Of a DNA stretch of 64,000 nucleotides, positions 2,215-40,543 are shown in pieces. Each line of letters opens with the position of its first letter. The first letter of the stretch is position 1. Source of the stretch: Eledone cirrhosa. Taxonomy: Eukaryota. The notes under the pieces were generated by a model, which had not been told where the DNA came from, made no database searches, and worked only from the letters and a program-made list of their open reading frames with translations. The stretch lies in NCBI GenBank assembly GCA_964016885.1, contig OZ024743.1:43462001-43526000 (forward strand). Reading direction: 5' to 3'. A program made the position numbers and the translations under genes.

Positions 2215-4010
2215 ATAATAGTTAAAGAATGGTCGGCGTTACAATAAGGGCTTTATTTAAACTACTGACAATTGTTTCGTTGATTATGTAGGTATAGAGT
2301 TTGCTAATCGCTTGATGTTGCGTTATTCGATCTCCAATACATTATTCACCTATGATCAACACGTCAGAGCATGGAAATATGAAAATAATTCACTCGAAAA
2401 ATACCGTATAATTAAAACAATAACATCAATAATAAAATAGTGTATAATATAAACAATAACATCAATAATAATACATGTATGGTAAATAGGTAGAGAAGTT
2501 ACAGACGTAAGAAACAAAAGTAGAGTGAAAGATAAGGTACATAAAAAAAGTAAGAAAATAAGAGAATGGAAAATATAAAGAGATAAATAAATAAATAAAT
2601 AAATAAGTAAGATCGTCTAAGTACATAGTAGTAGTTTTTGAGTAAGTTTTCTGTGGCGGGAAGCTAGATTTGCGATGTACATAGATATGTGTAGAGGGTC
2701 CGATAAAAGAGACAATAAATTAGAGATTAATTGCTGGATGTATGTATGATATTTATGGGCTGGGGATGACTGGACATTTGATAAACGCTTGTTGTAAATG
2801 TTTTGCTGATTGTTCTATCTTAATGGGATTGATGTTGTTTCAGAGATTTATGATCCAGTGTCCAATTGGCCGTTTGATAGCTAATAGCAGTGCGATGGTG
2901 TGTATTCTATATGTCAAAATATAGGTGGTTCAGTACTAATTTAGGAATTGGCGGTTCAATTCATGGTGGTTTAAAGTTTGTGAATCTAGTAGCTATCTTA
3001 TGTCTACAGAAAATAGATCTTTCTATTTTGCTGGTAAGAAGCATCCCATCGTACCATAAAATATGTAGTAGTTCTAAATTACAAAGCCCGCAGTGGGATA
3101 TACCGTTGCTGTAGGCTTTCGCTACCGATAATTTTGACCAGCTAATCTTATATTCTAGGTTTCTGTCATTAAATTGCCACTTTTATTGGCGCGCGTCGTA
3201 GAGTTCTGCAGTGCACAGTTCTTCATGGAGTGTCTGTGGACGTACCACCTTTTCTTAAACGCCACAGACGTGGAACCTCTGTAGTGCCTGGTAGAATTGC
3301 CTGAATTCACAGTACACCGGTATACTATACTTGAATCCAGGCATCTATTCTGTAGTGGGCACTTATCCGGTAGGTGGCAATTACAATTTGAGGTTTTATT
3401 TTGTGCAGGTTCATCGTTGCGGTTTTGTAAGTTTGTGTGGGTGGGTTGTGATTTAGGCCTATTAATGTTTTGTTGTGATGTCTTCCGATGCGTTTGTGGT
3501 TGTGATGTTGTTATGTGTTTGTGTTTTGTATTTGGTGTCATGGTGCGTATTGGTAGAGATATTTTTGTGGTTGATCTCACGTATGTGCGATTCTATGCTG
3601 GCTGCAGTAGAGTAGTAAAGTTTTATAGTTTTTCTATTAAAGATTTTATGGTATTTGTGTTATGCAGAGAAGTGCTTATCTGTGAGTTTAAAGAATGTAG
3701 AAGGTAGTTTAGTTTTTATAGAGGAGTTGAATATTGGATGGAACCATAGGTACTTTCTATCTCTGGATCTTCTATAGTTGTTGTAGGTCCTTATATTAGT
3801 GTTATGTTCAGTTATTTTTGGTGTTCGTTGTCTAACTCTATGTTTAGTCCTATGCTTGTTATTTCTATATGAGTGGGTAGTGATGCTGTTGTTAGGTTTG
3901 TTATTGTTGTCTCTATCTAGTATGTATTCGAGTTTCCCTTTATGTCCAGCCTTATGGAAAGCTATGTTATAATAGATTTTAACATATAGAATATAAGCCA
4001 TCGCACTGTA
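2215..4010 (-). mobile_element. 5'-truncated, decayed Naiad-like Penelope-like element (RT C-terminus/linker, GIY-YIG endonuclease, 3' UTR)
   Basis: ORF 3155-3580 has CNC..KCPL.NRCLDSSIVYRC...YRGST..FKKRWYVH; ORF 3660-4001 has YNIAFHKAGHK and LWFHPIFN. Both match the Naiad-like copies at 44-45 kb and 49.6-50.8 kb. Confidence 0.8.
2263..2371 (-). ncRNA. Hammerhead-like ribozyme motif (core CUGACGU, long stem II, palindromic stem III CAAUUG)
   Basis: Minus strand reads tgct-CTGACGT-gttgatcat...ataatcaac-GAAA-caattg-TC-agta. Confidence 0.55.
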
Positions 4011-4074
4011 TTAGCTATCACACGGCGAACAGGTCACTGGAGCATAAATCTCTGAACATTTCTTTCACCCTCTC

Positions 4075-4724
4075 TCCCTGAAACAACACCAACCCCATTA
4101 AGATAAAACAATCAGCAAAGCATTTACAAAACGCGTTTATCAAATGTCCCGCCATCCCTAGCCCATAAATATCATACATAGATCCAGCAATTAATCTCTA
4201 ATGTATTGTCTCTTCTATGGGACCCTCTACACGAATCTATATACATCTCGAATCTAGTTTCCCACCAACGAATACTTGTAAGAACACTTACTCAAAAACT
4301 ACTACTATGTACTTACAAGCTCTCACTTATTTATTTATTTATCTCTTTATATTTTCCATTCTCTAATTTTCTTACTTTTTTATGTACCCTATCTTTATTC
4401 TACTTTTGTTTCTTACGTCTGTAACTTCTCTACCTATTTACCATACATGTATTAATATTGATGTTATTGTTTATATTATACGCTATTTTATTATTGATGT
4501 TATTGTTTTAATTATACGGTATTTTTCTATATAATCTTGCCTCGAGTGAATTATTTTCATATATACATACTCTGATGTGTTGACCATAGCTAAATAATGT
4601 ATTGGGGATCCAAACATCAAGCGATTAGCGAAATCTATATCCACATGATCAACGAAACAATTGTCAGTACTCTAAATAAAGCCCTTATTGTACAGCCAAC
4701 CATGTTAATCTTCATTCTTTAACT

Positions 4725-4730
<6 letters not shown>
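4075..4730 (+). mobile_element. Inverted copy of the 3' UTR of the 2215-4010 PLE (fold-back arm)
   Basis: Diverged reverse complement of ~2215-2830; ends at (TA)n. A further short inverted copy of its tip lies at 4785-4877. Confidence 0.85.
4568..4669 (+). ncRNA. Hammerhead-like ribozyme motif (core CUGAUGU)
   Basis: tact-CTGATGT-gttgaccat...atgatcaac-GAAA-caattg-TC-agta; stem I tact/agta pairs perfectly. Confidence 0.55.
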
Positions 4731-4790
<60 letters not shown>

Positions 4791-4874
4791 AGTTAAAGAA
4801 TGAAGATTAACATGGTTGGCTGTACAATAAGGGCTTTATTTAGAGTACTGACAATTGTTTCGTTGATCATGTGG

Positions 4875-4947
<73 letters not shown>

Positions 4948-4960
4948 TTTTAATATAGAT

Positions 4961-5012
4961 GAGATTCTACAGGACTAGAACTGTTTCATTCATTAGAAAT
5001 CATCAGGAATCT
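4961..5012 (-). ncRNA. Hammerhead ribozyme, canonical core (left arm)
   Basis: Reverse complement of the 5601-5651 motif. Confidence 0.75.
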
Positions 5013-5600
5013 GGGTATCAAAAAATAAAAATGGTATTTATAGGTCTCTACAAGTGGTAGGAGAGGGTGGGGAGTTGGATGGGTGTAGGTCATTGGTTGA
5101 TAGAAAAGGGAATTCATTAAAAGCTAATTCTACAAAGCTATAGTTTATTTTTATTTATTTATGTTTTTAGTAACAAGGGCAGACAGAATTCTATAAACAG
5201 GTTCCGGATGGCATACCATTCCTTGTCATTAAGTTTCCCTTAAGCTAACAGATGTCTATAAGATCAGTGGGGGGTCAGTCATTGTCGATAGAATTAAAGA
5301 AAAGGGAGATTCTTTAACTCTATCGACCATGACTGACCCCCCACTGATCTTATAGACATCTGTTAGCTTAAGGGAAACTTAATGACAAGGAATGGTATGC
5401 CATCCGGAACCTGTTTATAGAATTCTGTCTGCCCTTGTTACTCTAAAAACATAAATAAATAAAAATAAACTATAGCTTTGTAGAATTAGCTTTTAATGAA
5501 TTCCCTTTTCTATCAACCAATGATTTACACCCATACCACTCCCGACCCTCTCCTACCACTTGTAGAGACCTATAAATACCATTTTTATTTTTTGATACCC

Positions 5601-5651
5601 AGATTCCTGATGATTTCTAATGAATGAAACAGTTCTAGTCCTGTAGAATCT
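5601..5651 (+). ncRNA. Hammerhead ribozyme, canonical core (right arm)
   Basis: agattc-CTGATGA-tttctaatgaat-GAAA-cag ttctagtc ctg-TA-gaatct: stem I agattc/gaatct, stem III cag/ctg, GUA cleavage triplet. Confidence 0.8.
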
Positions 5652-5747
5652 CATCTATATTAAAACTTTTATACTCTGCTATGTATTGAGTACCTTACTT
5701 ACTGTGGTTACCTCCGATTCAACCCGGAATAACGTATATATATATAT

Positions 5748-5784
<37 letters not shown>

Positions 5785-5855
5785 CAGTATTTGTATATGT
5801 ATATATATACACACTACCGGGCATATTGATAGTGAAAAATGACTATATATATATA

Positions 5856-6480: not shown

Positions 6481-6577
<97 letters not shown>

Positions 6578-6579
<2 letters not shown>

Positions 6580-7132
6580 TTATAAGTCGTTTGGAAGCCT
6601 CGACAATGCAAATGGGTAAATCTCCGGGTAACAAGGTCCGGTAGTGGAGAGAGAGATATGTAAGTGGGTGTACGTTGAGATGCGTGGTGTGTATAAGATG
6701 TGTGAGATGTGTAGAATGAAGGGAAGAGTAAAAGGGTAAAAATAATAATAACAACACAAGAATAATAATATCAACAAACAGCGAAAGACGCGTTCCGAGT
6801 TGTCCGACAGACAACCTTTTCCCCCACCCCGGAAAAAAAACCCCAGTTGATGGATGTGAATCCGAAATATATAGGGACTATTAAATCTCTCCCAAGGTAA
6901 CTCTCTCTCTTGTGTTGTTATTACTATTTTTACCCTTTTACTCTTCACTTCATTCTACACATCTCACACATCTTATAGACACCACGCATCTCAACGTACA
7001 CCCACTTACATATCTCTCTCTCCACCACCGGACCTTGTTACCCGGAGATTTACCCATTTGCATTGTCGAGGCTTCCAAACGACTTATAAATATTTACTTA
7101 TTGTTCCACAATACTTCAAGCAAACTTCAATA

Positions 7133-7140
<8 letters not shown>
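6578..7140. repeat. Fold-back element in (TA)n: ~183-bp inverted arms with ~145-bp spacer, likely a PLE tail
   Basis: 6578-6761 is the reverse complement of 6908-7092; the right side extends ~45 nt to (TA)n. A short copy of the arm tip is at ~1947-1990. Confidence 0.75.
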
Positions 7141-7174
<34 letters not shown>

Positions 7175-7353: not shown

Positions 7354-7674
7354 TACTGTTATATAAACATGTTTTAACGGTTTTAAACTCCTTGTATTCA
7401 TTTCTTTTATATATATATATATATATATTACATTTTTGTAGAGGGTGAAGGGGTCCAGAACAAAATACAGACTGCCCTGTGGAAATACATAGCGATAGGA
7501 TGTCATTTAGAGTAAGGGTACAAATGAAAACACGGAAAATGTATGGCTTCTGTGCACTTTCCTAGAAAAGGTTTCAGTTTATCAATTATGACAGTCACAT
7601 ACACACACCAATGATGCCAATAGCTTCGATCATCAAATTCCTGATGTGTATTACTGCCTTCATATATAAATATA

Positions 7675-7849
7675 ATATAGTATATAGGAACTAGAATGAG
7701 AAGTGTGAAGTTAAAGAAGAATGGAAAGATAACATTTGACAAGTGGATAGATAGATAAAAAATTTGTATCCGTCTAACCACTTCTCAAATTTTATCTTTC
7801 CATTCTTCTTTAATTTCACACTTCTCATTCTAGTTCCTATATACTATAT
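7675..7849. repeat. Short palindrome (~83-bp arms) next to a TA/microsatellite tract
   Basis: atatagtatataggaactagaatgagaagtgtg... is the reverse complement of ...cacacttctcattctagttcctatatactatat. Confidence 0.8.
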
Positions 7850-7916
7850 ATATATATATATGTATATATACACATATCTCTCTCTCTCTATATATATATA
7901 TATACACACATATATA

Positions 7917-9310: not shown

Positions 9311-9324
9311 TTATATATATATAT

Positions 9325-9366
<42 letters not shown>

Positions 9367-9367
<1 letters not shown>

Positions 9368-12300
9368 CTTTCTTTATTAACCACAAGAGTTTACATAAAG
9401 TAGGCATTAAGGACAGTGCAGGACAATACAGGACGGTACAAATGGACATTTCTGCGTGTAAAAAAACAGAGGATGTAATAAAAATAACAATGAAAAATTC
9501 CCCAATGGGGGGGGGAGACTTCCGAGGAACATTTGTGGAGAAAGACCATTAAAAGGCCACAGTGACCCTTACCACCAGGGCAAGTGCCCGCTCCCAGTTT
9601 TCCACCTTTAATTCCAAGATACGTACTCAGAGTAGGCCCATTCACTCGAGCCATATTTGCAACTCTCACCCATCTTTCAACAAAATGCTGGGAAGAGAGC
9701 ACTTTCCTCTCTACCCTGATTTTCCTTTTCAAATGAAATTTGAAAAGGTTAATTAGGGCATCACCGAAGAGGTAAGTGCTCGTCTTCAGCCCTTTCAAAC
9801 GTGTCCACCATACTATCTCTTTAGCCATGGCCACCAGAGAGATAAAAACTGCCTGCCCTTCCCGGCTAATGGAAGAGGGCGGGGCAATCCTCACGATGTC
9901 TCAGCTGATAGCTGGATCCATCTTACACGTGACAGCAGGTGTTCGACATAAACCCACAAGTCAGCAATGCTTGGACACTGGACGAGTGCGTGCAGGACGG
10001 TTTCGTCGCCCTGTGCGCATCTCGGACATGCCCGGCTGACGACACCTCCATGCCTGTAGAGTTTATCCCGAACTGGCAAAACTCCTCGGTAGCACTGCCA
10101 GGCCAGGGATTTCTGGAGGTTGTCCATAGGCCCCGGCCCGAATGTCCTTCCTAAAAGATTGGCTAGTAGATTTTCGTCGACGCCTAGAGTTTCTCCAAGT
10201 ACATCGTCGCTCTTCCCCTCCACTAATCCTCTATAGAACGACAAGGTTGAGTTTCCACCGATCACATTGCCCGATTGGTCGAGGGCTGTGAGCGCCTGAA
10301 GACATTCCATTCTCCAAGCGCTCCCTCTCGGTCTTCGTTTGACCCAGGGGCAGCTCCGTCAAGGAGACGAGCTGGGGAAAGGCGTGTCTAGCAAACGGTG
10401 ACCACACCTGATCACCGCCGGGGAAGAGGTGGAGATGTCGTTCCTGAGCACGTGTCTGCGCATCATCAGCCACGGTATGCCCAGCCCTCCATGTAGCGGG
10501 TGTTGACAGCAGATGGACCGCCTGTCCATCGGAGCGCGTCCCTTCCACAAAAAGCGAAAGAGCAAACGCTCCAACGCAGTCAGGCGGGGCTTAGTACAAG
10601 GTACGACGGTCAGGCGGTAATAGATGACGGACGCGATGTACGCGTTGGCCAACTCCGCTCGACCTTTCAGGGATAGCCTTTTCTGGGTGAGAGAAGCCAC
10701 CCTGCCCATCACCGTGTCCCAGTTTTTTGTCCGTCTGGAGGTCCGGACCGAACCAGACCCCTAGCAATTTAACCGGTCCGTCCGTCCAGCGCCCGACGAC
10801 GCTGTTAGACGGCATGGACCTGCCGGACCAAGAGGGACGAGAGGGGACATCCTTGGCAGACCGAGCGCATGATGTTGAACGGTTCCAAAAGGTGACCTTC
10901 ACTCTCACCACAGAGCAGATGTCGCTGTGCATGGCAGCGACCCAGCCTCTGAAGACCGGCCCAAAGCCAGCCGCCCTCAGGATTGCCGCTAGGTAACGAT
11001 GGTCGATCCTATCGAAAGTTTCGACTGATGTAAATTGACCATGGACCCACCCGTGCCAGGTTCTCTACGATGTATCGCATGAGGTGGAGATTGTCGTGGA
11101 TGGATCTGTCGGCAATGGCGCAAGTCTGCGCCTCTCCCACCAGACCACCAACGACAAGCGCCAACCTCTTTGCTAGCACCTTGGCCAAAATCTTGAACTC
11201 TGTGTTTAGCAGAGTTATGGGCCTGAAATGATCTATGTTATCCCCCTTGTTCGGATCCTATCTCAGTGGCGCCACAGCTGCTCGACTCACAGAGCTTGGA
11301 ATTCTCCCGTTCTGTTGCCAGTTGCAGTAGACGTCCGCCAAGAGGTCTCCGAACAAGTCTGGCATTTGTACGTAAAGTTCATAGGGCAGACCATCCAAAC
11401 CAGGCGATTTACCCCTTGTGCAGCCAGTGATTGCCGCCCGTATTTCAGCGGCGGTTATCGGCTTTTCGCAACACTCCGTCTCAGTGGCCGAGAGCCACGG
11501 CAGTCCGTCGAGGTAGACACTAAAGTCCATCCCTTGATCCGGCCCGCCGCTGCCCCCGAACAGCTTTGCGAAGTGTCGCTCAAAAGCTTCACACATTTGC
11601 CCGGGATCGAGTAGCATGCGCCTGTTGTGGTCCACCAAAGACCGGATCGTCGCTTTGTTGCCACGACGCGCTTCCGCCACTCGGGCCCATTGAACGGCTT
11701 TCGTCCCCTCGTGTTTGAGAGCACGCACCCTAGCTCTGACAACGCAGGCTTCGTGCTTTGCATTGAAGAATTGGTCAAGGGCCAATTTCGCCGCAAGTAC
11801 GTCGGTCGCGATGCCTTTGCTAAGGGCGTCGTCTAATTTTCTAACTAATTCTCCCTCTGCTCTATTTTTCTCTATTGATAAAGCCTTACTAAACCTAATG
11901 GATCTATTTTAATTGCTCTTTTCAGAGCAAACCACCACTTGTTGACGATGAAAACCGTCAACGCCCTCTTAACTAGTTCGCTAATCCGGTCTCTGTAGGC
12001 CTTGAGCGCTGGTAAGGACGCGTTTAGCTTCCAGTAGCCGGGTCGTCGTCTATGAAGCCTATCTAAGTCACGGACACAGATCATGAATTTGTGGTGCGTG
12101 TAGCTGACTATCTTGAATTGTGGACAGCCTATGCTAGACCTATCTATTTCCCTACAAAATACTCTATCTAGATATGAGATGGATGACACCATGCGATTTG
12201 TCCAAGTCCACATTGGTACATTCGGGAAATCCATTCGGTACCTGTCAGACAGTACAAAACGCCTGAGCAGGTTGGTGAGGCTCTTGCACCCTCCTCCCCT

Positions 12301-15006
12301 ATCCGCTAATCTCACACAGTCCCAGCATGCATCTAAGATCCCGTTCCAGTCGCCCACTAACACTAAAGAGCGGGACGTTCCAAGAAAGACCTCCAGACGC
12401 CGGAAGAAATCGGGCCATCCTGCTCCTGTCGAGGCATAGACGGCCTCAAGCCTGAAAGCTTTCCCGTCTCCGCTGGTCACGTCCAGCAACACCAACTTAC
12501 CCTCTGGGTCCAGGAGGATGGCCCGTATGGCGAGATCCAAACCTCTCCGAAAAAGCACAGCAATTCCTCCTCCCGATCCAGGACGGCTGGGAGATGCGTA
12601 GACATCGTAGCCGCGGAAGATCGGTGAGAAGGCCCGTGCTTCGGAGATTCTGGTCTCACCGATGGCCACTACATCTATGTTTAGTGACCTGAGGTTGTTG
12701 AGCAGGTGGCCCTGCTTCCATGACGACCCCAAGCCACGCGCGCTATGCTGCCTATTCTGAGTGAGGTCATGTTGAAAAGGAGTGGAAAAGATGGGAAAGA
12801 CCACTTACCTTACTTCTCGTAGAGGAAGGACGGTTTTTCCATCCTTTTCACTGCTTGTGGCCTCCCCAGGAAGGATGTCCTTATAAATCCTCCTGGAGAG
12901 TGCTTGTCGGAAGTCTCCGATGTCTTTGGAGAATTTTCGTTTTAGTGTCATGTACGTTTTCTGTGTGATGCGAGTGATTTGTATGAGTGGAGGCGGTGTG
13001 AATTTTTGGGTTGTTGTGTAGTCTTTTTCTGTGATGCTGGTGTTGTGTTGGATGTAGTGTAATAATTGCTTGTTGTTCAAATTTAATGCTGTGTAGTGTG
13101 TATCGTTTTGGTTGTTTTGTTTTGTTGGCGTTTGTTGTAGGGTTTGTTTCTGTTTCGCATTTGGTGACTTTTGTGGGGTAGGTGATGGTGGTGTTGGGGT
13201 TAATGATGGTGATGGTGTTGGTGTTTGGGTTGATGGGGTTGATGATGCTGGTGTGGATGGTGGCATATCTGTCCTAACTTTTTTTATTTCTTAATTTATT
13301 TGTTTCCCTCTGTATTTTGTTTTTGGAGGGGTAAGGAAGAGAATGTTTTCTTTTTTGGTTTCTTTTTTTTTTCCTGATACCGTTTCCCACTCCTCGTCGT
13401 CACAATCTGTCTCCAGTTGTGATAGGCCGGGGAGTGGAAAATCTTCCACAGGCGTTAGTTTTGGTTGTGGCGTGGTGGATGGTGTAGGCGCTGGTGCTAG
13501 TTCTGAAGCGTTGGGTGGTGGAGGTGTTGGTTTTGCTGGTGGTGGTGGTGTTGGTTTTGCTACTGTTGCTGGGATGTTGCTGTTATAGTTGCTTCTGTTG
13601 TTGCTGCTACAGTTGTTGCTGCCATCTCTGCTACTGGTGGTGTTGATGGTTGTGTCACTGGGGTGGGTAGGAGATGTGGCCTCAACCTTTTAGCCTGAGG
13701 ACAGAAAGCCCTTAGGTGGGTTCCTTCACCACAAACGACACACCTAGGCCTTCTGCCCTCGACAATTACGGTGAGGTGGCTGCCGTCAGTGAGGTCTATT
13801 ACCTCTGGGATGTCCTCAATGCTTTTTTGGTCCGCTTGGATCAGGAGCTCCATTCCAAATCCGGACCAGTTCTCCTGTTTTTCTTTTGCTATTGCTATTA
13901 TCTTTGTGTTGGCTTCGATGCCGGCGAGGACGGCCGCTATTAGCCAGGGAATTTCGATGGCCGGTGGAATGTGGGTCACCCTGATCTTTACGAGTCTCTG
14001 GCCACAATAGCTTGGGACGAGTGTGAAGTCGTCACATCTTAATGGGGCCATGGGGTGTTCTCTAGTCTCCTCTGGCTTTTCAAAGAACACGTCCACGGTT
14101 CCATACTTCTGCCCACGTCTGATGTGGGTTTTTCTTGCCCACACATGTCCCAAAGCTTTTTGGATTTGGGACTCGGATGCCCGTTCCACTCGGCGCGATT
14201 TTACATTTATTGTTCGATACGACACGGTGCATAGGCGCCGATGCTCCATTTTATTAGGTGTGGGGGGGGGGGGGGAGGCTGACCCTGTACCCATCTTTCT
14301 TTACCATTTGTTTGGCATTTTCTATTTCCTCCTGAGTTACCGTAAATGCTTCGCACTGTTTTGCTACTCTGGCAAAACTCAGGGTGGTTTTTTTAATGTC
14401 ATTGTTGTTGTTGTTGCTATCGTTATTTTTGTTATTATTAATTTTAGTTTAAGTTGTGGTGGTGGTGACGTCAGTGAAGTTCGGTTTGGGAGAGTCCATT
14501 TTGGTTGAAAATATTTCGACATCACGAGTTGATTAATTTTTTCCTTTTGTTTCTGTTGTCGCGGTGGTGGTAGGGGTGGTGGTTGTCGCAGTGGTGGTGG
14601 TGGTGGCGGCTTTAACAACTGCAGTCATTGGTAATGGCGGGAAATGAATGTCTGCCTGAGACAAATTTAAAATATTGCTAGTGCTTAAATTGTTTGTGTT
14701 GGCAGACGTAGTATCATTTACAATGGTGGTGTCGGTGTGAGCTGTTAATTTGTGAGAAAGGCTTTCAGCTGCTTGGTGCAGTGGTGAATTAGCCATTTTT
14801 TTTTCAAAGAAATTGTTTGATAATCATCAAAGTTTAAATTTTGGGCACAAGGCCCCAATCTTTTTGGGTGTCCTTTTCGGAAAACAATGTATGTGCGCTT
14901 ATATATAGTTAACAATAAAAATTTTCCATAAATGGCAATTTTTAACAAACGGAAATAACAAACCTTTGCGGAGCTCACGATGATACGATTTACTACGTAG
15001 GTCGCC
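9367..15006 (-). mobile_element. Tx1/L1-group non-LTR retrotransposon copy 1 (full-length ends, decayed ORFs)
   Basis: ORF1 with CX2CX4HX4C (13560-14294) and APE-RT fragments (11872-12804, 11258-11785, 9891-10310). A ~0.23-kb deletion near 10825 removes YADD. AATAAA at the 3' end; (AAT)n on both flanks. Confidence 0.92.
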
Positions 15007-15043
<37 letters not shown>

Positions 15044-15078
15044 GGGAAGGTACGCACATGGTGGATAGAGTGTTATGC

Positions 15079-15565
15079 AATCGCTCCCGTAACTTTTGGA
15101 TTTTTTACATATTTAAAACAATTGTGATAGAATAATTCTTATTACAAATGGAACATAATATACCAGTTTTCCGTCTCAGGAAATGACAACGCATCACATT
15201 ATGGCATATGGCTCCAATATGCAATATTTAATTTTGTATCAGAAATTTTATAGTCAAAAAAAGAAAATGATTACAAACAACAGCCAAATAAATTCACCAC
15301 CAACACAACCACCGGCGCCGCCACCATCACCACTATCACAAGCAAAATACAAACCAAAGGCTGCAGCATCACCATCACTATAGTACTACTATCCCGCCAC
15401 CACCGACACCACTACCCCATCGCTACCGCCACTATTCCCTCACTCCCTCCTTTTAAGAGAGAGATGGTAATAGTGTCACTACAGATGAATAGAAGCGAGG
15501 AAGGCATCAAAAAGATATAAATAGACTGATTTAGTGACCCGGTCAAACAGATAACAACATCAACA
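15079..15565 (+). repeat. Unclassified repeat module X (copy 1), upstream of R4/Dong copy 1
   Basis: aatcgctcccgtaa.ttttg.attttt.acatatttaaa start, CAC-rich middle and gatataaataga.tga.ttagtgacc end are shared with 31478-32165. Confidence 0.65.
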
Positions 15566-15949
15566 CCAAAATTATTATTGTTGTTGTATCTCTAAACTCT
15601 CTCAAAATATTTAGTTTAAACGATGTCAAATCTAAACTATAGTAAAATAATAATAATAAGCAACAAGTCGAAAGATTATAGAACAGAAAACAGACAAAAA
15701 CAAGTCCAACAACAACCAATTTCAAGAGTTTTGAACGCAACAACCCCTAGTTCCCAATAGCTAACATCAAAAACAGCAGCAGCTGCAGCAACAACACTAG
15801 TAACTGATGTTACTGGCCTTAAACAACGAAAAACGTGAATGAAAAAAACAAACAAACAAAAAAGTCACACATTCAAACATTACCAAGAAACTTATGTTTA
15901 TTTTTTTAAGTTTTCATATATCTCTTTGTTTATTTATTTATGTTCATCT

Positions 15950-18900
15950 ACGCTAAAATCACCGTGGGTGATGAAATCACTGGGGGTGATGAAATCACCG
16001 GTGGTTATGTAACCATACATTCACCAATCCTCGATATGAGTATTTAAATGTCGAACCTAAACAGTTCGAATAACGGTGAAGAGGAGACTGGAATGTCATG
16101 TGACAGACTCTCAACCAGCAAGTGCCCCTTGGCCCAGCAGCAGGGACCTGGCTGTCATCCAAATTCTGCTGGTGTTGGAGGAAGATGAAGAAGGAAATGG
16201 ACAAGAACCAACTGGACGAAAGAATTGAATAGAACTGTCACGGAATGTTACCTGAAGTTTAATCCCAAGGAAACGGATGCATAACATCTGGAACGAGATT
16301 GGTCTATTTAAATTAGATGAACAAAAATTTGCCAGGCATGCTCGGGTAATATGAACTAATGGTTGGATAAGCGAGTTGGAACAGAAGGAACTGAGCAGAA
16401 AGATTAGGTTAGAAATGGAGAGTGGAGTATGCCAGACAAATGAGCCAGTGGGAAATGAAGGGGAAGAGGTTGAGAGAACGGAGAAAGCATCCGAAGCAGA
16501 CAAAGATATGGATGCTGAAATAAGTAACATCTGGAACAAAGATACGGCCATTGAGGAAATGAATGCTGACGGGCTAGGACAAGATTTGGTTGATATCCTA
16601 AACTTAGTGGTAGATGAAATGATAAATGATAGTGGGAAACCTATGAACCTAAGATTTGTAGACAGGAAGAAGTTAAAAGAAACAACAGCTAAGGTAAACA
16701 AAGTCATCCCATACCTTTAGGCGAGGAGCATTATCCTCAAAGCAACAGCAAATGCGGTGAGGAAATTACTTGGCATAAAAATGAGAGGAAACATCAAACA
16801 AGAAAGATTAGAACCTTGGTGGAAGAAACGACTGAATGGTCAAATCAGGGAAATGAGAAATGATATTGGAAAGCTTGTGTCCCTACTGAATGGGACATTA
16901 TAAAACATAGACACGAAAAATAGACTGGAAATAAAGTACACAACTAGGAGGAAAAAGCTAAATATCATCATAGAGGAACTGAAGCAACGCACTGTAGCAA
17001 AGAGTGCAAAGATTAGGCGATATGAGAGCAGAGTCGGTCAGTATAGACAGAACCGCATGTTTCACAACAACCAGAGATGTTGTTTGGACAGCTTGAAGGG
17101 AAAGAAAGAGGCAACGACTTGATCCCTGCGGCGGAACAGACTAAGACATTCTGGAGAGTAATATGGGAGCAGGATGTTGAACATAATAATCGGTCAGTGT
17201 GAATTGAGACAGTTCAAAAGGAGATAAGTCAACAAGCACACCAACAAAAAGATTTGAGTATCACAGTTGAAATTCTTAAAGGGCAGGCCAAAAAATTAAC
17301 CAACTGGAAATCATCAGGCCCAAATGGTTTGCAGGGGGTATTGGATCAAAAATATAATATCCCTCCACCCGAAACTGACAACCATGTTCAATGACTGCTT
17401 GATGAGTGTGAGGTACCAGAGTTGTTTACAAAATGTACCACAGTTCTGGTAATGAAAGACCGAATCAAGGGTAATGATGTTACCAACTATAGACCTATCA
17501 CATGTCTGTCCGTAATGTGGAAACTGTTAACAAGCATTGTGTCTGAGGAAATCTACCATCACCTCCACATAAACAACTTGTTACCGGACGAACAGAAAGG
17601 ATGCAGAAAGAAGTCCCGTGGTACAAAAGACCAGTTACTTATTGATAAGATGGTAATGAACAATTGCAAGAGGAGACACACTGGTCTTGCCATGGGATGG
17701 ATAGATTACAAAAAGGCATTCGACATGGTTCCTCATTCTTGTATAACCAAAAGCCTAGATATCTTCAAGTTGGCAAATAACATCAGACAGTTGTTGAGCA
17801 AAAGTATGAAATCCTGGGAAACAGATTTAATATCGGGTGAGAATCATTCGGAGGCGTGAAGATCAAGAGAGGTGTCTTCCAGGGAGATAGTTTGTCCCCT
17901 CTGCTGTTTGTCCTTGCCCTGATGCCCCTGTTCGTTATATTGCGAAAACTGAGAGCTGGATACAAGTTGGGAAAAGGAGAGCTTACCATCAACCACCTCC
18001 TCTTCATGGACGATCTTACACTCTTTGGGAAGAGTGAGAAGGAGTTGGATGTACTTGTTGACACTGGCCTTATTTTCAGCAATGATATATGTATGCAATT
18101 TGGTATTAAAAAGTGTGGAGTCCATGTGATGAAGTGGGGTAAATTGAGCAGAAGCAACGGAATCCAGGTACCAACAGGTGAGATGAGAAAGGAAATTGAC
18201 ACTGAAGAAGGATACAGATATTTAGATGTTCTGGAGGCAGATGACATCAAGAACAAAAAAAATGAAGGAATCGATGAGATCTGAGTACATAAGGAGAGTA
18301 AAGAGCGTATTAAAATCACATCTAAATAGTAGGAATGTCATAAGTGCAGTGAATTCCCGAGCTGTGTCTATTTTTAGGTACAGTGCGGGAATTCTGAAAT
18401 GGAATGTTGCTGTGCAAAAAGAAATGGATAGGAAGACGAGGAAGCTATTGACTATCTACATGTTCCACAATAGGAGTGATGTCGATAGACTCTACTTAAA
18501 CATATCTGAAGGTGGAAGAGGTCTTATCAGCATAGAGGACTGTGTTCAGATGGAGAAAAGCAACCTGCACAAATACGTGACTGACAGTAGGGAGCCAATG
18601 GTCAGAATTGTACTGAAGGAGAGGACAATCGACCAGGGTATGTCCAAGGAGGAAATAACAACGAGGAGGAAATGCAACCTTCATGAAATATGCCTTCATA
18701 TTACCTTCTTTAAGAAAACTGAATTTAGGGATCCACAGACATGGAACTGGTTAAAAAGAGGGACCTTAAAAAAGCTACAGAAGGAATGCTAATGGCTGCG
18801 CATATTACAAGGAGGAGGTTAGACCACTGTGCAGGATATGTGGAGAGAGAGAGGAGACTTTGGCTCACATTGTATCCGAGTGTAAAACCTAGCCCAGACA

Positions 18901-19473
18901 CACTATAAATGCTGGAGACATGGTGTGATGGGCAGGGTGATCCACTGGCACCAATGCAAAGTAAACAATTTACCATATTCTGAGCAATGGTATGAGCAGA
19001 AGCCAGAGTCGGTGATAGAAAACGATTAGGTGAAGGTGCTATGGGATTTTAGGATATAGACAGACAAGAAACTGGAACACAATAGGCCTGACCTGGTGGT
19101 TTTGAACAAGAAAAAAAATCGTGCCTGATTGTAGATGTAGCATGCCCATTTGACACGAGAGTGCAAGAAAAGGTGAGGGAGAAAATTAACCGATACCAAG
19201 ACTTAAAGTGGGAGGTAAACAGGATTTGGAACTGCCGTGAAGTCAGAGTCGTCCCGATTGTCATAGGCGCACTTATTACTATCTCAAAGAGTTTCCAAGG
19301 ATGGTTACAAAATTAGTCCAGCCCCGCTTTTTGGAACACTTCAAAAGGCATGCTTGCTGGGAACAACAAGAACACTCCGTATGTCTTGAATATCTGAGGC
19401 TGAAGGTAGCGGCTTGATATTCAGTTCAACAAACTTTCCAGTTAACTAACATCAATGATTGAGACTCAAAGAA
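15950..19473 (+). mobile_element. R4/Dong-like non-LTR retrotransposon copy 1 (frameshifted, decayed)
   Basis: [38 protein letters not shown] in ORFs 17422-18792; RLE remnants (RPD..., VDVACP, KINRYQDL) near 19080-19210; 3' end joins (AAT)n. 5' boundary approximate. Confidence 0.88.
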
Positions 19474-19474
19474 C

Positions 19475-19523
<49 letters not shown>

Positions 19524-19819
19524 TTTTCTTTATTAACCACAAGGGTTCACATAAAGTAGACATTAAGGACAGTACAGGACAATACAGGACGGTACAAATG
19601 GGCATTTCTGCGTGTAAAAAAACAGAGGTTGAAATAAAAATAACAAAGAAAAATTCCCCAATAGGGGGGAGACTTCCAAGGGACATTTGTGGAGAAAGCC
19701 CATTAAAAGACCACAGTGGCCCTGACCACCAGGGCAAGTGCCCTCTCCCAGTTTTCCACCTTTAATTTACAGACACATACTCAGAGAAGGCCCATTCATT
19801 CGGGCCATACTTGCTTCTC

Positions 19820-22800
19820 TCACCCATCTTTCAACAAAAGCTGGGAAGAGAGCACTTCCCTCTCTACCCTGATTTTCCTTTTCAAATGAAATTTGAAAAA
19901 GTTAATCAGGGCATCACCGAAGAGGTAAGTGCTCGTCTTCAGCCCTTTCAAACGTGTCCACCATACTATCTCTTTCGCCATGGCCACCAGACAGATAAAA
20001 ACTGCCTGCCCTTCCAGGCTAAAGGAAGGGGGCGGGGCAATCCTCACGATGGACTCAGCTGATAGCTGGATCCGTCCTACACGTGACAGCAGGTGTTCGA
20101 CATAAACCCACAAGTCAGCAATGCTCGGACACTGGACGAGTGCGTGCAGGATGGTTTCGTCGCCCTGCGCGCATCTCGGACATGCCCGGCTGACGGCACC
20201 TCCATGCCTGTAGAGTTTATCCCGAACTGGCAAAGCTCCTCGGTAGCACTGCCATGCCAGGGATTTCTGGAAGTTGTCCATAGGCCCCGGCCCTAAAGTC
20301 CTTCCGAAGAGATTGGCTAGTTGATTTTCGTCGACGCCTAGAGTTTCTCCAAGTACGTCGTCGCTCTTCCCCTCCACTAATCCCCTATAGAACGCCAAGG
20401 TGGAGTTTCCACCGATTACATTGCCCGATTGGTCGAGGGCTGTGAGCGCCTGAAGACATTCCAGTCTCCAAGCGCTCCCTCTCGGTCTTCGCTTGACCCA
20501 GTACTGCAGCTCCGTCAAGGAGACGAGCTGGGGAAAAACGTGTCTTGCAAACGGCAACCACACCTGATCACCGTCGAGGAAGAGGTGGAGATGTCGTAGC
20601 CTGAGCGCGTGTCTGCGCATCATCAGCCACGGCATGCCCAGCCCTCCACGTAGCGGGTGTTGACAGCAGATGGACCGCCTGACCATCGGAGCGCGTCCCT
20701 TCCACAATAAGCGAAAGAGCAAACGCTCCAGCGCAGTCAGGCGGGGCTTAGGACAAGGTACGACGGTCAGGCGGTAGTAGATGACGGATGCGATGTACGC
20801 ATTCGTCACCTCCGCTCGACCTTTCAGGGATAGCTTCCTCTCCGCCCATTTCTGGGTGAGAGAAGCCACCCTGCTCGTCACCTCGTCCCAGTTTTTGTCC
20901 GTCTGGAGGTCTGGACCGAACCAGACCCCTAGCAATTTAACCGGTCCGTCCGTCCAGCGCCCGACGACGCTGTTGGACGGCATGGACCTGCCTCTCCAGG
21001 TGCCGAGCTGCAGGCCCACTGACTTTTCCTGGTTGATCATTGCTCCTGTCACCGCTTCGTATTCTCTTAGTGTAGTGCCGATCGCCTCGATGTGTTTGGC
21101 GTTCGACACCACTACGGTGACATCGTCGGCATATGCTGACACGGATCTTCCGCATCCTAGTTCGCGCGGGACCCCCTTCAACGTCTCCAGTTTGTGCAGT
21201 AATGGCTCGAGAGTCAATACGTACAATAGGGACGAGAGGGGACATCTTTGGCGGACCGAGCGCATGATGTTGAACGGTTCCGAAAGGTGACCGTTCACTC
21301 TCACTACAGAGCAGATGTCGCTGTGCATGGCAGCGATCCAGCCTCTGATGACGGGCCCAAAGCCAGCCGCCCTCAGGACTGCCGTTAGGTAACGATGGTC
21401 GACCCTATCGAAGGCTTTCGACTGATCTAAATTGATCAAAGACCCACCCGTGCCAGGTTCCCTAGCTACCCTCTCTACGATGTATCGCATGAGGTGGAGG
21501 TTGTCGTGGATGGATCTGTCGGGAATGGCGCATGTCTGTGCCTCTCCCACCAGACCACCAACGACAAGCTCCAACCTCTTTGCTAGCACCTTGGCCAAAA
21601 TCTTGAACTCTGTGTTTAGCAGAGTTATGGGCCTAAAATTATCTATGTGATCCCCCTTGTTCGGATCCTTTCTCAGCAGTGCCACCGCTCCTCGGCTCAC
21701 AGAGCTGGGAATTCTCCCGTTCTGTTGCCAGTTGCAGTAGACGTCCGCCAAGAGGCCTCCGAACAAGTTTGGCATTTGTACGTAAAGTTCATAGGGCAGA
21801 CCATCCAGACCAGGCGATTTACCACTTGTGCAACTAGTCATTGCATCCCTTACTTCAGCGGTTGTTATCGGCTTTTCGCAACACCTCGCCTCAGTGGCCG
21901 AAAGCCGCGGCAGTCCGTCGAGGTAGACACTAAAGTCCATCCCTCGATCCGGCCCGCCACTGCCCCCGAACAGTTGAGCGAAGTGTCGCTGAAAAGCTTC
22001 ACACATTTGCCCGGGATCGAGTAGCATGCGCCCGTCGTGGTCCACCAAAGACCGGATCGTGGCTTTGTTGCCACGACGCGCCTCCGCCACTCGGGCCCAT
22101 TGAACGGCTTTCGTCCCCTCGTGTCTGAGAGCACGCACCCTAGCTCTGACAACGCAGCCTTCGTGCTTTGCATTGAAGAATTGGTCAAGGGCCAATTTCG
22201 CCGCAAGTACGTCGGTCGCGATGCCTTTGCTAAGCGCCTCATCTAATTTTCTAACTAATTCTCCCTCTGCTCTATTTTTCTCTATTGCTAAAGTCTCACT
22301 AAACCTAATGGACTCTATTCTAATTGCTCTTTTCAGAGCAAACCACCACTTGTTGTTGACGATGGCCCCCGTCAACGCCCGCTTAACTAGTTCGCTAATC
22401 CGGTCTCTGTAGGCCTTGCGCGCTGGTAAGGACGCGTTTAGCTTCCAGTAGCCGGGTCCTCGTCTATGAAGCCTATCTAAGTCAAGCACACAGATCACGA
22501 ATTTGTGGTCCGTGTAGCTGACTATCTTGAATTGTGGACAGCCTATGCTAGACCTATCTATTTCCCTACAAAATACTCTATCTAGATATGATCTGGATGA
22601 CCCTATGCGATTTGTCCAAGTCCACATTGGTACATTCGGGAAATCCATTCGGTACCTGTCAGACAGTTCAAAACGTCTGAGCAGTTTGGTGAGACTCTTG
22701 CACCCTCCTTCCCTATCCACTAATCCCACACAATCCCAGCGTGCATCTAAGATCCCGTTCCAGTCGCCCACTAACATTAAAGAGCGGGACGTTCCAAGAA

Positions 22801-23185
22801 AGGTCTCCAGACGCCGGAAGAAATCAGGCCGCCCTGCTCCTGTCGGGGCATAGACGGCTACTAACCTGAAAGCTTGCCCGTCTCCGCTGGTCACGTCCAG
22901 CACCACCAACTTACCTTCTGGGTCCAGGAAGATGGCCCGTATGGCAAGATCCAAACCTCTCCGAAAAAGCACAGCAACTCCTCCCCCCGATCCCGGACGG
23001 CTGGGAGATGCGTACACATCGTAGCCGCCTAAGATCGGTGCGAAAGCCTGTGCTTCGGAGATTCTGGTCTCGCTGATGGCCACTACATCTATGTTTAGTG
23101 ACCTGAGGTCGTTGAGCAGGTGGCCCTGCTTCCATGACGACCCCAAGCCACGCGCATTTATGCTGCCTATTCTGAGTGAGGTCAT
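19820..23185 (-). CDS. ORF2: APE endonuclease - reverse transcriptase - CCHC finger
   Basis: INARG, ISET, VYAP, GDWN, SYLDR, TDH; SPGLDG, NFRPITLLN, DQSKAFD, YADD; CPRC..H..C. The QG motif is altered (RQRCPLS) and there is a 1-nt deletion near the C-terminus relative to copies 1 and 3. Confidence 0.93.
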   Translation of the reverse strand: MTSLRIGSINARGLGSSWKQGHLLNDLRSLNIDVVAISETRISEAQAFAPILGGYDVYASPSRPGSGGGVAVLFRRGLDLAIRAIFLDPEGKLVVLDVTSGDGQAFRLVAVYAPTGAGRPDFFRRLETFLGTSRSLMLVGDWNGILDARWDCVGLVDREGGCKSLTKLLRRFELSDRYRMDFPNVPMWTWTNRIGSSRSYLDRVFCREIDRSSIGCPQFKIVSYTDHKFVICVLDLDRLHRRGPGYWKLNASLPARKAYRDRISELVKRALTGAIVNNKWWFALKRAIRIESIRFSETLAIEKNRAEGELVRKLDEALSKGIATDVLAAKLALDQFFNAKHEGCVVRARVRALRHEGTKAVQWARVAEARRGNKATIRSLVDHDGRMLLDPGQMCEAFQRHFAQLFGGSGGPDRGMDFSVYLDGLPRLSATEARCCEKPITTAEVRDAMTSCTSGKSPGLDGLPYELYVQMPNLFGGLLADVYCNWQQNGRIPSSVSRGAVALLRKDPNKGDHIDNFRPITLLNTEFKILAKVLAKRLELVVGGLVGEAQTCAIPDRSIHDNLHLMRYIVERVAREPGTGGSLINLDQSKAFDRVDHRYLTAVLRAAGFGPVIRGWIAAMHSDICSVVRVNGHLSEPFNIMRSVRQRCPLSSLLYVLTLEPLLHKLETLKGVPRELGCGRSVSAYADDVTVVVSNAKHIEAIGTTLREYEAVTGAMINQEKSVGLQLGTWRGRSMPSNSVVGRWTDGPVKLLGVWFGPDLQTDKNWDEVTSRVASLTQKWAERKLSLKGRAEVTNAYIASVIYYRLTVVPCPKPRLTALERLLFRLLWKGRAPMVRRSICCQHPLRGGLGMPWLMMRRHALRLRHLHLFLDGDQVWLPFARHVFPQLVSLTELQYWVKRRPRGSAWRLECLQALTALDQSGNVIGGNSTLAFYRGLVEGKSDDVLGETLGVDENQLANLFGRTLGPGPMDNFQKSLAWQCYRGALPVRDKLYRHGGAVSRACPRCAQGDETILHALVQCPSIADLWVYVEHLLSRVGRIQLSAESIVRIAPPPSFSLEGQAVFICLVAMAKEIVWWTRLKGLKTSTYLFGDALINFFKFHLKRKIRVEREVLSSQLLLKDG

Positions 23186-23219
23186 GTTGAAAAGGAGTGG
23201 AAAAGATGGGAAAGACCAC

Positions 23220-25213
23220 TTACCTTACTTCTCGTAGGGGAAGGACGGCTTTTCCATCCTTTTCACTGCTTGTGGCCTCCTCAGGAAGGATGTCCTTATA
23301 AATCCTCCTGGAGAGTGCTTGTCGGAAGTCTCCGATGTCTTTGGGGAATTTTTGTTTTAGTGTCATGTACGTTTTCTGTGTGATGCGAGTGATTTGTATG
23401 TGTGGAGGTGGTGTGAATTTCGGGGTTGTTGTGTAGTCTTTTTTCTGTGATGCTGGTGTTGTGTTGGATGTAGTGTAATAATTGCTTGTTGTTCAAATTT
23501 AATGCTGTGTAGTGTGTATCGTTTTGGTTGTTTTGTTTTGTTTGCGTTTGTTGTGGGTTTGTTTCTGTTTCGCATTTTGGTGACTTTTGTGGTGTAGGTG
23601 ATGGTGGTGTTGGAGTTAATGATGGTGATGGTGTTGGTGTTTGGGTTGATGGGGTTGGTGATGCTGGTGTGGATGGTGGCATATCTGTCCTAACTTTTTT
23701 GTTTCTTAGTTTATTTGTTTCCCTCTGTATTTTGTTTTTTGGAGGGGGAAGGAAGAGAATTTTTTTCTTTTTTGGTTTCTTTTTTTTTCCGGATATCGTT
23801 TCCCACTCCTCGTCGTCACAATCTGTCTCCAGTTGTGATAGGCCGGGGAGTGGAAAATCCTCCACAGCCGTTAGTTTTGGTTGTGGTGTGGTGGATGGTG
23901 TAGGCGCTGGTGCTAGTTCTGAAGCGTTGGGTGGTGGTGGTGTTGGTTTTGCTGGTGGTGGTAGTGGTATTGGTTTTGCTACTGTTGTTGGGTTGTTGCT
24001 GTTATAGTTGCTTCTGTTGTTGCTGCTACAGTTGTTGCTGCCATCTCTGCTACTGGTGGTGTTGATGGTTGTGTCACTGGGGTGGGTAGGAGAGGTGGCC
24101 TCAACCTTTTAGCCCGAGGGCAGAAAGCCCTTAGGTGGGTTCCTTCACCACAAACGACACACCTAGGTCTTCTGCCCTCGACAATTACCGTGAGGTGGCT
24201 GCCGTCAGTGAGGTCTATTACCTCTGGGATCTCCTCAATGCTTTTTTGGTCCGCTTGGATCAGGAGCTCCATCCCAGATCCGGACCAGTTTTCCTGCTTT
24301 TCTTTTGCTACTGCTATTATTTTCGTGTTGGCTTCGATGCCGGCGAGGACAGCCGCTATTAGCCAGGGAATTTCGATGGCCGGTGGAACGTGGGTCACCC
24401 TGATCTTTACGAGTCTCTGGCCACAATAGCTTGCGACGAGTGTGAGGTCGTCACTTTTTAATGGGGCCATGGAGTGTTCTCTAGCCTCCTCTGGTGTTTC
24501 AAAGAACACATCCACGGTTCCATACTTTTGCCCACGTCTGATGTGGGTTTTTCTTGCCCACACATGTCCCAAAGCTTTTTGGATTTGGGACTCGGATGCC
24601 CGTTCCACTCGGCGCGATTTTACATTTATTGTTCCATACGACACGGTGCACAGGCGCCGATGCTCCATTTTATTAGGTGGGGGGGTGAGGCTGACCCTTT
24701 ACCCATCTTTCTTTACCATTTGTTTGGCATTTTCTAAATCTTCTTGAGTTACCGTGAACGCTTCGAATTGTTTTGCTACGATGGCGAAACTGAGGGTCGG
24801 TTTCATAATGTCATTGTTGTTGTTGTTGCTATCGTTATTTGTGTTAATCTTAATTTTTGTTTCAGTTGTGGTGGTGGTGTCGTCATTCGTCTTTGGTGCG
24901 GAAGAGTCCATTTTGCTTAATTTCATTTCGACATCACGAGTTAATTTATTTTTTTCTTCTTTTGTTTCTGTTGTCGCAGTGGTGGTGGGGGTGGTGGTTG
25001 TCGCGGTGGTGGTGGTGGTGGAGGTTTTAACACTGCAGTCATTGGTAATGGCGGGAAATGAATGTCTGCCTGTGACAAATTTAAAATATTGCTACTGCTT
25101 ATATTTTTTTTTGTGTTGGCAAATGTAGTAACATTTACAATGGTGGTGTCGGTGTGAGGTGTTATTTTGTGAGGAAGGCTTTCAGCTGCTTCGTGCAGAG
25201 GGGAATTAGCCAT
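23220..25213 (-). pseudogene. ORF1 (gag-like, zinc knuckle CVVCGEGTHLRAFC) of Tx1 copy 2, broken by frameshifts/stops
   Basis: Consecutive ORF pieces 24941-25213, 24699-24926, 23979-24668, 23296-23865, homologous to copy 1 ORF1. Confidence 0.8.
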
Positions 25214-25413
25214 TTTTTTTCAAAGAAATTATTGGATAATAATAAAAGTTAAAATTTTGGGCACAAGGCCCCAATCTTTTTGGGTGTCCTTTTCGGAAAA
25301 CAATGCTTATAAACAGTTAACAATAAAATTTTCCATAAATGGCAATTTTTAACAAACGGAAATAACAAACATTTGCGGAGCTCACGATGATACGATTTAC
25401 TACGTAGGTCGCC

Positions 25414-25464
<51 letters not shown>

Positions 25465-25466
<2 letters not shown>

Positions 25467-38882: not shown

Positions 38883-38892
38883 TATATATATC

Positions 38893-38919
<27 letters not shown>

Positions 38920-38927
<8 letters not shown>

Positions 38928-40325: not shown

Positions 40326-40335
40326 CTCACCTCCT

Positions 40336-40425
<90 letters not shown>

Positions 40426-40478
40426 TAATATTATTCAGAATATTAATAAATGAAGACATTCACATAATCAAAATATAT

Positions 40479-40543
40479 GTTTTATTATATATAGTTCGTA
40501 GGTAATGTGCTGTTTTTTCAGTACGTCGTCGTCAGATAAAATA
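40479..40543 (-). ncRNA. Degenerate hammerhead motif
   Basis: ttttat-CTGACGA...GAAC-tatata-TA-ataaaa; GAAA is mutated to GAAC. Confidence 0.45.

What the first reader, a model, noticed from the sequence alone, without database searches (positions are those of the whole stretch)
4942..5733. ORF-less 0.8-kb near-perfect palindrome with a canonical hammerhead in each arm
Seen: ~360-bp arms, an 8-nt loop, and intact CUGAUGA/GAAA/GUA hammerheads at 4961-5012 (-) and 5601-5651 (+). A transcript from either strand would be a long rod ending in a self-cleaving motif. Inference: either a one-off fold-back PLE insertion or a mobile non-autonomous palindromic retrozyme-like element, with a rod-like RNA and ribozymes in both polarities.
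Basis: partly seen in the sequence, partly recalled or inferred. Interest (0 to 1): 0.72.

Follow-up and report, generated by a model that had tools for sequence, protein, structure and literature searches.

The report
Back-to-back stump of a Penelope retrotransposon
This 0.8-kb DNA palindrome is two short back-to-back copies of the end of an abundant Penelope-like jumping gene, likely joined at a small natural hairpin during or after insertion, and is an ordinary product of that kind of element rather than a new self-spreading ribozyme RNA.

Summary
The palindrome and both hammerhead motifs are real. They are the end (pseudo-LTR) of a high-copy Penelope-like retrotransposon (PLE). The right arm plus its one-sided 61-nt tail is 97.6% identical to the DNA in front of an intact 713-aa Hydra-clade ORF elsewhere in the genome. 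The hammerhead core has 17,787 exact matches; 1,334 arms read straight through the loop site; the fold junction occurs only twice. The second copy carries markers of another subfamily, so the two most likely arose separately at the family's one native 8-bp inverted repeat. Other copies fold elsewhere, mostly next to the hammerhead. In a full transcript the rod would pair the ribozyme away (84 kcal/mol), and each strand has only one hammerhead, so no circle can be cut out. Inverted truncated copies, a one-sided tail, (TA)n targets and opposite-strand hammerheads are all described for PLEs. This scan found the same architecture before on other DNA of this genome. Verdict: ordinary PLE insertion, low interest.

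The parts
4940..5317 (-). Tail-less, 5'-truncated inverted copy of the PLE pseudo-LTR; it reads through the loop and the second half of the native inverted repeat
   Evidence: family positions 62-441; outer end at the family's second common end (43 of 111 arms end at 61-68)
4962..5012 (-). Type I hammerhead motif of the left arm; predicted cut between 4968 and 4967
5294..5317 (.). Native 8-bp inverted repeat with 8-nt loop (5302-5309); the two arms are joined here over 8 bp of microhomology
   Evidence: present in unfolded family copies; the only inverted repeat with arm >=6 bp and loop >=4 nt in the 625-nt family majority sequence
5310..5673 (+). Tail-bearing, 5'-truncated copy of the PLE pseudo-LTR
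   Evidence: 5310-5734 is 97.6% identical over 425 of 425 nt to the DNA upstream of an intact ORF in L148
5601..5651 (+). Type I hammerhead motif of the right arm (U.U at 10.1-11.1, as in many Hydra-clade PLEs); predicted cut after 5645
5674..5734 (+). One-sided PLE 'tail' (61 nt); in full-length copies it continues to the ORF start about 47 nt further on
   Evidence: (58 of 111 arms end at positions 1-4)
4879..4942 (.). (TA)n target microsatellite, left flank
5735..5785 (.). (TA)n target microsatellite, right flank; any target duplication is hidden in the repeat

Best explanation
This is a dead, doubly 5'-truncated insertion of an autonomous Hydra-clade Penelope-like retrotransposon in a (TA)n run, and its two arms are likely two reverse-transcribed copies of the element's RNA joined at a native 8-bp inverted repeat. 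Shown: the arms are the family's pseudo-LTR; the outer ends fall on the family's two common ends; the joint lies on 8 bp of microhomology; intact RT-endonuclease ORFs of the family exist. Inferred: the element's protein cut the (TA)n target; each target end primed a cDNA on the same RNA, one at the end of the tail and one about 61-67 nt further in; both stopped near the hairpin; their 3' ends, being complementary over 8 bp, annealed and were filled in. The hammerheads are passengers of the pseudo-LTR and are predicted to be masked in any transcript that spans both arms.
For: Identity (about 0.93): arm plus tail 97.6% identical to the DNA before an intact 713-aa ORF (intact ORFs in 3 of 8 loci examined). 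The ORF has the Hydra-clade marks RWR, DKT, CxCx5C and CxxC/CxH and visibly matches the Hydra rows of Craig et al.'s alignment around WYNPPF. Exact counts: hammerhead core 17,787, 40-60 nt upstream 2,194, loop site read through 1,334, ORF start 87, junction 2. Ends: 58 of 111 non-edge arms at the tail end, 43 of 111 at 61-68. Mechanism (about 0.5): of 8 other directly joined pairs that I picked out, 7 are asymmetric and 6 have 0-2 nt of overlap or one added base, which fits two separately truncated copies and not a hairpin turn. Paired arms share private variants (13 in one pair, position 330 in the C5 twin). Two insertions carry the same non-native circular junction on both arms, so both arms came from one template there. 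In both junction copies the loop is read by the tail-less arm, so a target-primed cDNA that snapped back on itself could not have supplied the tail. Frangieh et al. (PMC11167929, parts 1-2 of 4) report cutting and extension of both strands and two RT start sites that bound the tail.
Against: Pfam and NCBIfam give no RT or GIY-YIG hit for the ORF; its identity rests on motifs, a weak pairwise match to a GIY-YIG RT in the window (E 7e-5 and 4e-4), Atlas neighbours and comparison by eye with a published alignment; no tree was built. The window's left arm shares a rare 2-bp deletion with both arms of the C5 twin (14 matches against 1,130 without it), a coincidence that a common origin would explain more simply at that one site. 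Sequence alone cannot separate joining during insertion from a later central deletion. The loop-orientation argument rests on two copies. The arm sample is biased towards long, young copies and towards contig C1.
Confidence: 0.85

Rival explanations
1. Same PLE origin, but the centre was made later: a longer palindromic insertion lost its middle by deletion between the 8-bp direct repeats that the native inverted repeat creates across a palindrome's centre.
For: Longer palindromes of this family exist (arms to position 625 and beyond). The geometry gives exactly this junction. Arkhipova et al. 2013 (PMC3846280, passages) report microhomology-mediated deletions in Penelope copies.
Against: Other arms end at 419, 420 and 424 with unrelated joints, which hints that copying stops at this hairpin; the numbers are small and the sample is biased. 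No longer allele was seen (reads do not cover this locus uniquely).
Confidence: 0.2
2. Same PLE origin, but by self-priming: an antisense RNA or a free cDNA ending at the hairpin folded back and was copied, and one arm was then trimmed by the endonuclease at the tail boundary.
For: The joint sits exactly on the only suitable hairpin. Arkhipova et al. 2013 propose self-priming on an antisense template for palindromes at inverted junctions. Both arms share subfamily markers.
Against: It needs an extra trimming step to leave the tail on one side. It does not explain the 7 of 8 asymmetric joints without a hairpin, nor the two insertions with unequal numbers of repeat units per arm.
Confidence: 0.2
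3. The palindrome is a mobile non-autonomous unit (a rod-like retrozyme) that is transcribed, self-cleaves and reinserts as a whole; the C5 copy is its sister.
For: A second copy has the same junction, the same loop orientation, the same kinds of ends, and shares a rare 2-bp deletion with the window's left arm. The hammerhead is the least variable part of the arm among 114 arms (0.8% against 1.4-3.5%).
Against: Only 2 junctions in 3.0 Gb. The C5 copy carries two further markers on both arms (114T and a 5-bp deletion) shared with 10 other arms that lack this junction, while the window carries neither and has 362C on both arms. Nine of the 11 other deletion-bearing arms read through the loop site. 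The ends are the family-wide ends, set by new insertion events. One hammerhead per strand cannot release a monomer, and the rod masks it by 84 kcal/mol.
Confidence: 0.03
4. Assembly artefact: a fold-back chimeric read made the palindrome.
For: No laid contig or read was seen to bridge the junction (other samples, partial listing).
Against: The arms differ at 8 places, one of them a 2-bp deletion seen in other family copies; the two ends match the two family-wide ends; a separate copy with the same joint exists on another contig.
Confidence: 0.02

Closest known systems
Hydra clade of C-terminal EN+ Penelope-like elements (Craig et al. 2021, PMC8557442; passages, section 11, supplement part 2 of 59 and search hits read)
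   Same: RWK-type, DKT, CxCx5C and CxxC/CxH motifs; (TA)n target; hammerhead in the pseudo-LTR, often with U.U at the base of stem II; inverted 5'-truncated copy and one-sided tail. Penelope-13_HM is listed with an inverted 5' copy and the hammerhead on both strands.
   Different: This family is not Hydra-1_Obim (its listed hammerhead differs). The tail is 61-67 nt against the 30-40 nt stated there. Here both copies are truncated before the ORF, and full-length copies have a long microsatellite-rich stretch between ORF and pseudo-LTR.
Opposite-strand pairs of minimal hammerheads from truncated PLEs in Schistosoma mansoni (Cervera and De la Pena 2014, PMC4209133; parts 1-2 of 4 read)
   Same: Two type I hammerheads 100-700 bp apart on opposite strands, attributed to truncated PLEs; here they are 589 bp apart.
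   Different: Here stem III has 4 bp and an 8-nt loop with a central CTAG, not the minimal form.
Penelope insertions with palindromic inverted junctions in Adineta vaga (Arkhipova et al. 2013, PMC3846280; passages read)
   Same: Inverted pseudo-LTR overlapping the direct one, palindrome at the joint, tail on one side that overlaps the ORF frame.
   Different: They favour self-priming on an antisense template; the asymmetric joints here fit two joined cDNAs better.
Metazoan non-LTR retrozymes (Cervera and De la Pena 2020, PMC7229834, passages; Li, Clavereau and Pollet, bioRxiv 10.64898/2026.07.22.740005, part 1 of 5)
   Same: Non-coding, type I hammerhead, low GC, likely moved by PLE proteins.
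   Different: Retrozymes are head-to-tail repeats with at least two hammerheads in the same sense; this has one per strand and no repeat unit of its own.

Membership tests
EN+ Penelope-like element insertion | Sequence is the pseudo-LTR of an element with one RT plus C-terminal GIY-YIG ORF | tested here: met
   713-714 aa intact ORFs behind the same arm and tail; YRDD and VY..YIG motifs; no Pfam hit, weak pairwise hit
EN+ Penelope-like element insertion | 5' truncation with an adjacent inverted copy | tested here: met
   truncation profile 17,787 / 2,194 / 1,334 / 87
EN+ Penelope-like element insertion | Tail on one side only | tested here: met
   5674-5734; two family-wide ends
EN+ Penelope-like element insertion | Type I hammerhead motif in the pseudo-LTR | tested here: met
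EN+ Penelope-like element insertion | Target site duplication | tested here: inconclusive
   Both flanks are (TA)n
Hydra clade | RWK-type motif, DKT, CxCx5C linker, CxxC and CxH around the C-terminal E and N | tested here: met
   (RWR in place of RWK)
Hydra clade | CCHH motif absent from the endonuclease | tested here: inconclusive
   By eye only: two cysteines lie between the VY and YIG words in P0001 at an atypical spacing; no alignment was run
Hydra clade | Groups with Hydra in an RT tree | not tested
   No tree built
Hydra clade | Insertion into (TA)n | tested here: met
Metazoan non-LTR retrozyme | Head-to-tail units with two or more hammerheads in the same sense | tested here: not met
   One hammerhead per strand
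Metazoan non-LTR retrozyme | Propagates as its own family | tested here: not met
   2 junctions, different subfamilies
Metazoan non-LTR retrozyme | Expressed as self-cleaved linear and circular monomers | not testable with these tools
   No RNA holder listed
Active hammerhead ribozyme | Self-cleavage at the GUA triplet | not testable with these tools
   Motif intact and conserved; fold not favoured alone and masked in the rod

The most novel reading that the evidence does not exclude
The palindrome is itself transcribed and reinserted by the PLE protein as a rod-shaped, two-polarity hammerhead RNA, and the C5 copy, which shares its junction, loop orientation and a rare 2-bp deletion, is a relative whose arms were later re-templated: the first step towards a viroid-like palindromic retrozyme born from a PLE.
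Probability: 0.03. Interest if true: 0.65.

Novelty: new member of a known kind. Interest (0 to 1): 0.14.

Why it matters
As a locus it matters little: it is one of thousands of PLE stumps and is probably inert or a source of double-stranded RNA. Its small value is as a data point on an open question, how PLEs build inverted ends and one-sided tails: the same 8-bp joint formed twice in separate subfamilies, with the loop on the tail-less arm both times, which fits two cDNAs joined by microhomology. The family, with intact ORFs, two sharp ends and about 18,000 hammerhead-bearing arms, would be a usable system for that test. The 191- and 195-nt hammerhead arrays of the same family seen in passing are more interesting than this finding.

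Tried and rejected
Rfam found no hammerhead at gathering score in the window or at E<=10 in 4900-5800; the microRNA-like hits there reflect the palindrome only. A neighbouring PLE ORF in L037/L041 first looked like the partner but has its own 620-nt repeat and was rejected. Pfam, NCBIfam and solved-structure searches gave nothing useful for the partner ORF. Sequencing runs: no RNA holder listed. Laid DNA runs showed no bridge across the junction, and one of the runs laid no reads at all; loose ends ran on into the parent sequence; these are other samples and say nothing on this locus. The idea that insertion generally folds back the flanking DNA around (TA)n was rejected: 1 of 360 runs near family ends (this locus) against 4 of 1,582 elsewhere. 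The shared 2-bp deletion was followed up as a sign of descent and rejected on linked markers. A paper search for Penelope + twin priming + inverted + palindrome listed one review, not read; five paper searches in all. 'Twin priming' as an L1 mechanism is recalled, not from a call. Look-ups of earlier findings by sequence, near place and words gave nothing.

Full report
Observation. The window holds an inverted repeat with arms at 4940-5301 and 5310-5673 and an 8-nt loop. The arms differ by 7 substitutions and one 2-bp indel. The right side continues for 61 unpaired bases to 5734. (TA)n flanks both ends. A type I hammerhead motif lies at 5601-5651 (+) and, as its mirror, at 4962-5012 (-). A descriptor with stem I >=6 and stem III >=3 found none in 20 of 20 shuffled windows. 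Rfam does not report it, and its 10.1-11.1 positions are U.U.

The arm is a repeat. The genome is a 3.0-Gb animal assembly. The arm drew 1,769 candidates, of which 40 were scored, at 97-99% identity. In these copies the sequence runs straight through the loop: the 8-bp inverted repeat and its loop are native to the family. Exact pattern counts give a steep truncation profile: hammerhead core 17,787, 40-60 nt upstream of it 2,194, loop site read through 1,334, ORF start 87. These are counts of arms, not insertions, and exact matches undercount.

The parent is an autonomous PLE. Among 20 long stretches fetched around family copies, several showed the tail running on into an ORF. L085 has a stop-free frame through the tail and a 713-aa ORF from the first Met. 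Of 8 loci examined for the ORF, 3 were intact from that Met (L081, L085, L148); the window's right arm plus tail matches the DNA before the L148 ORF at 97.6% over 425 of 425 nt. The protein has YRDD, a C-terminal VY..YIG region and the marks that Craig et al. give for the Hydra clade (section 11): RWR for RWK, DKT, CxCx5C, CxxC and CxH. The stretch around WYNPPF matches their Hydra rows by eye, and their table shows U.U at the base of stem II in many Hydra hammerheads. Against: Pfam and NCBIfam give no RT or GIY-YIG hit; the pairwise match to a GIY-YIG RT in the window is weak; the Atlas neighbours are unnamed animal proteins, some clusters with GIY-YIG or RT in a share of members; no tree was built.

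The ends are the family's ends. Of 114 arms mapped in the first 98 loci, 111 were not cut by a locus edge; 58 end at the tail end (positions 1-4) and 43 at positions 61-68. The window has one of each. Frangieh et al. found two RT start sites that bound the tail in an anole PLE, and cutting and extension on both strands.

The junction is not a family. A 76-nt search and a pattern with one mismatch found it twice: here and at G000:C5:52173936. The C5 copy has the same layout. It shares with the window's left arm a 2-bp deletion found in 14 arms against 1,130 without, which I followed up as possible descent. Of the 11 other deletion-bearing arms, 10 carry two linked markers (114T and a 5-bp deletion) that both C5 arms also carry; 9 of the 11 read through the loop site. 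The window lacks both markers and has 362C on both arms (10 of 93 arms). So C5 belongs to a small subfamily that is otherwise not folded here, and the window to another; the deletion, in a short AG repeat, most likely recurred. Both joined at the same place because it is the only inverted repeat with arm >=6 bp and loop >=4 nt in the family majority sequence; only 38 of 226,576 position pairs offer 8 or more bases of microhomology.

Palindromes are the family's normal product. Among the first 30 hammerhead matches on contig C1, 18 fall in 10 tight palindromes; 7 of the 10 fold within a few bases of the start of hammerhead stem I on both arms; 3 loci gave no row under my filters. Reads from other samples show many joints at the same place. 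Among longer copies I picked 15 pairs; 10 are directly joined. Leaving out this locus and its twin, 7 of 8 are asymmetric and 6 of 8 have 0-2 nt of overlap or one added base.

Mechanism. Asymmetric joints, private variants shared by paired arms and two insertions whose arms both carry one non-native circular junction point to two cDNAs, one from each target end, on one template. Here their 3' ends are complementary over 8 bp. In both junction copies the loop is read by the tail-less arm, so a target-primed cDNA that folded back could not have produced the tail. This is inference: I put two-ended priming at about 0.5, later central deletion at 0.2, self-priming with trimming (Arkhipova et al. 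2013) at 0.2. All three are PLE insertions; the overall identity is about 0.93, and I give 0.85 to the statement as worded. The wording 'both ends prime' was prompted by earlier AI notes of this scan and then checked on this family.

The ribozyme. It is the least variable part among the 114 arms (44 of 5,313 cells, 0.8%, against 1.4-3.5% in other regions apart from the hairpin, which was part of a search pattern), with variation almost confined to loop II; this suggests constraint in the active lineage, with the caveat that one third of the sample was chosen for high identity. In a transcript across the palindrome all 51 bases pair with the other arm, and forcing the hammerhead costs 84 kcal/mol, against about 2 in the single arm. 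Each strand has one hammerhead near its 3' end, so no monomer or circle can be released.

Comparison. It works like, and is, an EN+ PLE insertion: inverted 5'-truncated copy, one-sided tail, microsatellite target (Craig et al.). Cervera and De la Pena 2014 already noted hammerhead pairs 100-700 bp apart on opposite strands from truncated PLEs, and Penelope-13_HM is listed with the hammerhead on both strands. It fails the two testable marks of a non-LTR retrozyme. The family itself did not match the one cephalopod Hydra entry in that table, so it may be unnamed; I did not search a repeat library. Earlier notes of this scan describe the same architecture on other pieces of this genome.

Verdict. 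Observation confirmed; fold-back PLE reading supported, mobile palindromic retrozyme not supported. New member of a known kind, interest 0.14.

Noticed in passing
L143 (G000:C4:279228300-279231000) and L144 (G000:C9:23834500-23837500): Head-to-tail arrays of 191-nt and about 195-nt units made from this same PLE (start of the hammerhead, tail, first ORF codons), each folded into an asymmetric palindrome with the family's two ends. The unit junction is not the hammerhead cut site and appears on both arms; 10 junctions at these 2 loci only. They look like retrozyme-type arrays newly born from a PLE, and read-through would give hammerhead-to-hammerhead monomers.
   Followed up: partly
L031/L032 (G000:C1:83679689-83692189): Twelve tandem units of about 1.08 kb, each the family's pseudo-LTR with tail plus a microsatellite-rich stretch and one hammerhead in the same sense.
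   Followed up: partly
window 4638-4877: A 100% identical inverted duplication of about 95 nt around a (TA)n run, directly left of the finding; the duplicated DNA looks like the end of another PLE with a degenerate hammerhead near 4570-4670. Such TA-centred duplications were rare in my loci.
   Followed up: partly
window 2229-4703, 6497-7174, 7661-7862, 38884-46840, 58201-62181: Further inverted-repeat structures; 58201-62181 flanks a 601-aa RT plus GIY-YIG frame, and hammerhead-like motifs lie at 39020 (-) and 43346 (+). Likely other PLE families.
   Followed up: no
window 5065-5090 and 5523-5545: Five of the seven substitutions between the arms cluster in a 21-nt stretch with four G runs that could form a quadruplex; different changes break the runs in each arm.
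   Followed up: no
family arms, positions 455-461 and 419-425 from the tail end: Small clusters of 5' truncation points (five arms at 455-461; 419, 420, 424, 425, 425); possible RT stop sites, from a biased sample.
   Followed up: no
L037:529-4179: Intact 1,217-aa frame of a different PLE with an asparagine-rich insert and its own 620-nt repeat; no Pfam hit.
   Followed up: no
window 9323-29200: Three related copies of a LINE-type element (91-95% identical), one with an open 1,134-aa frame at 19820-23224.
   Followed up: no
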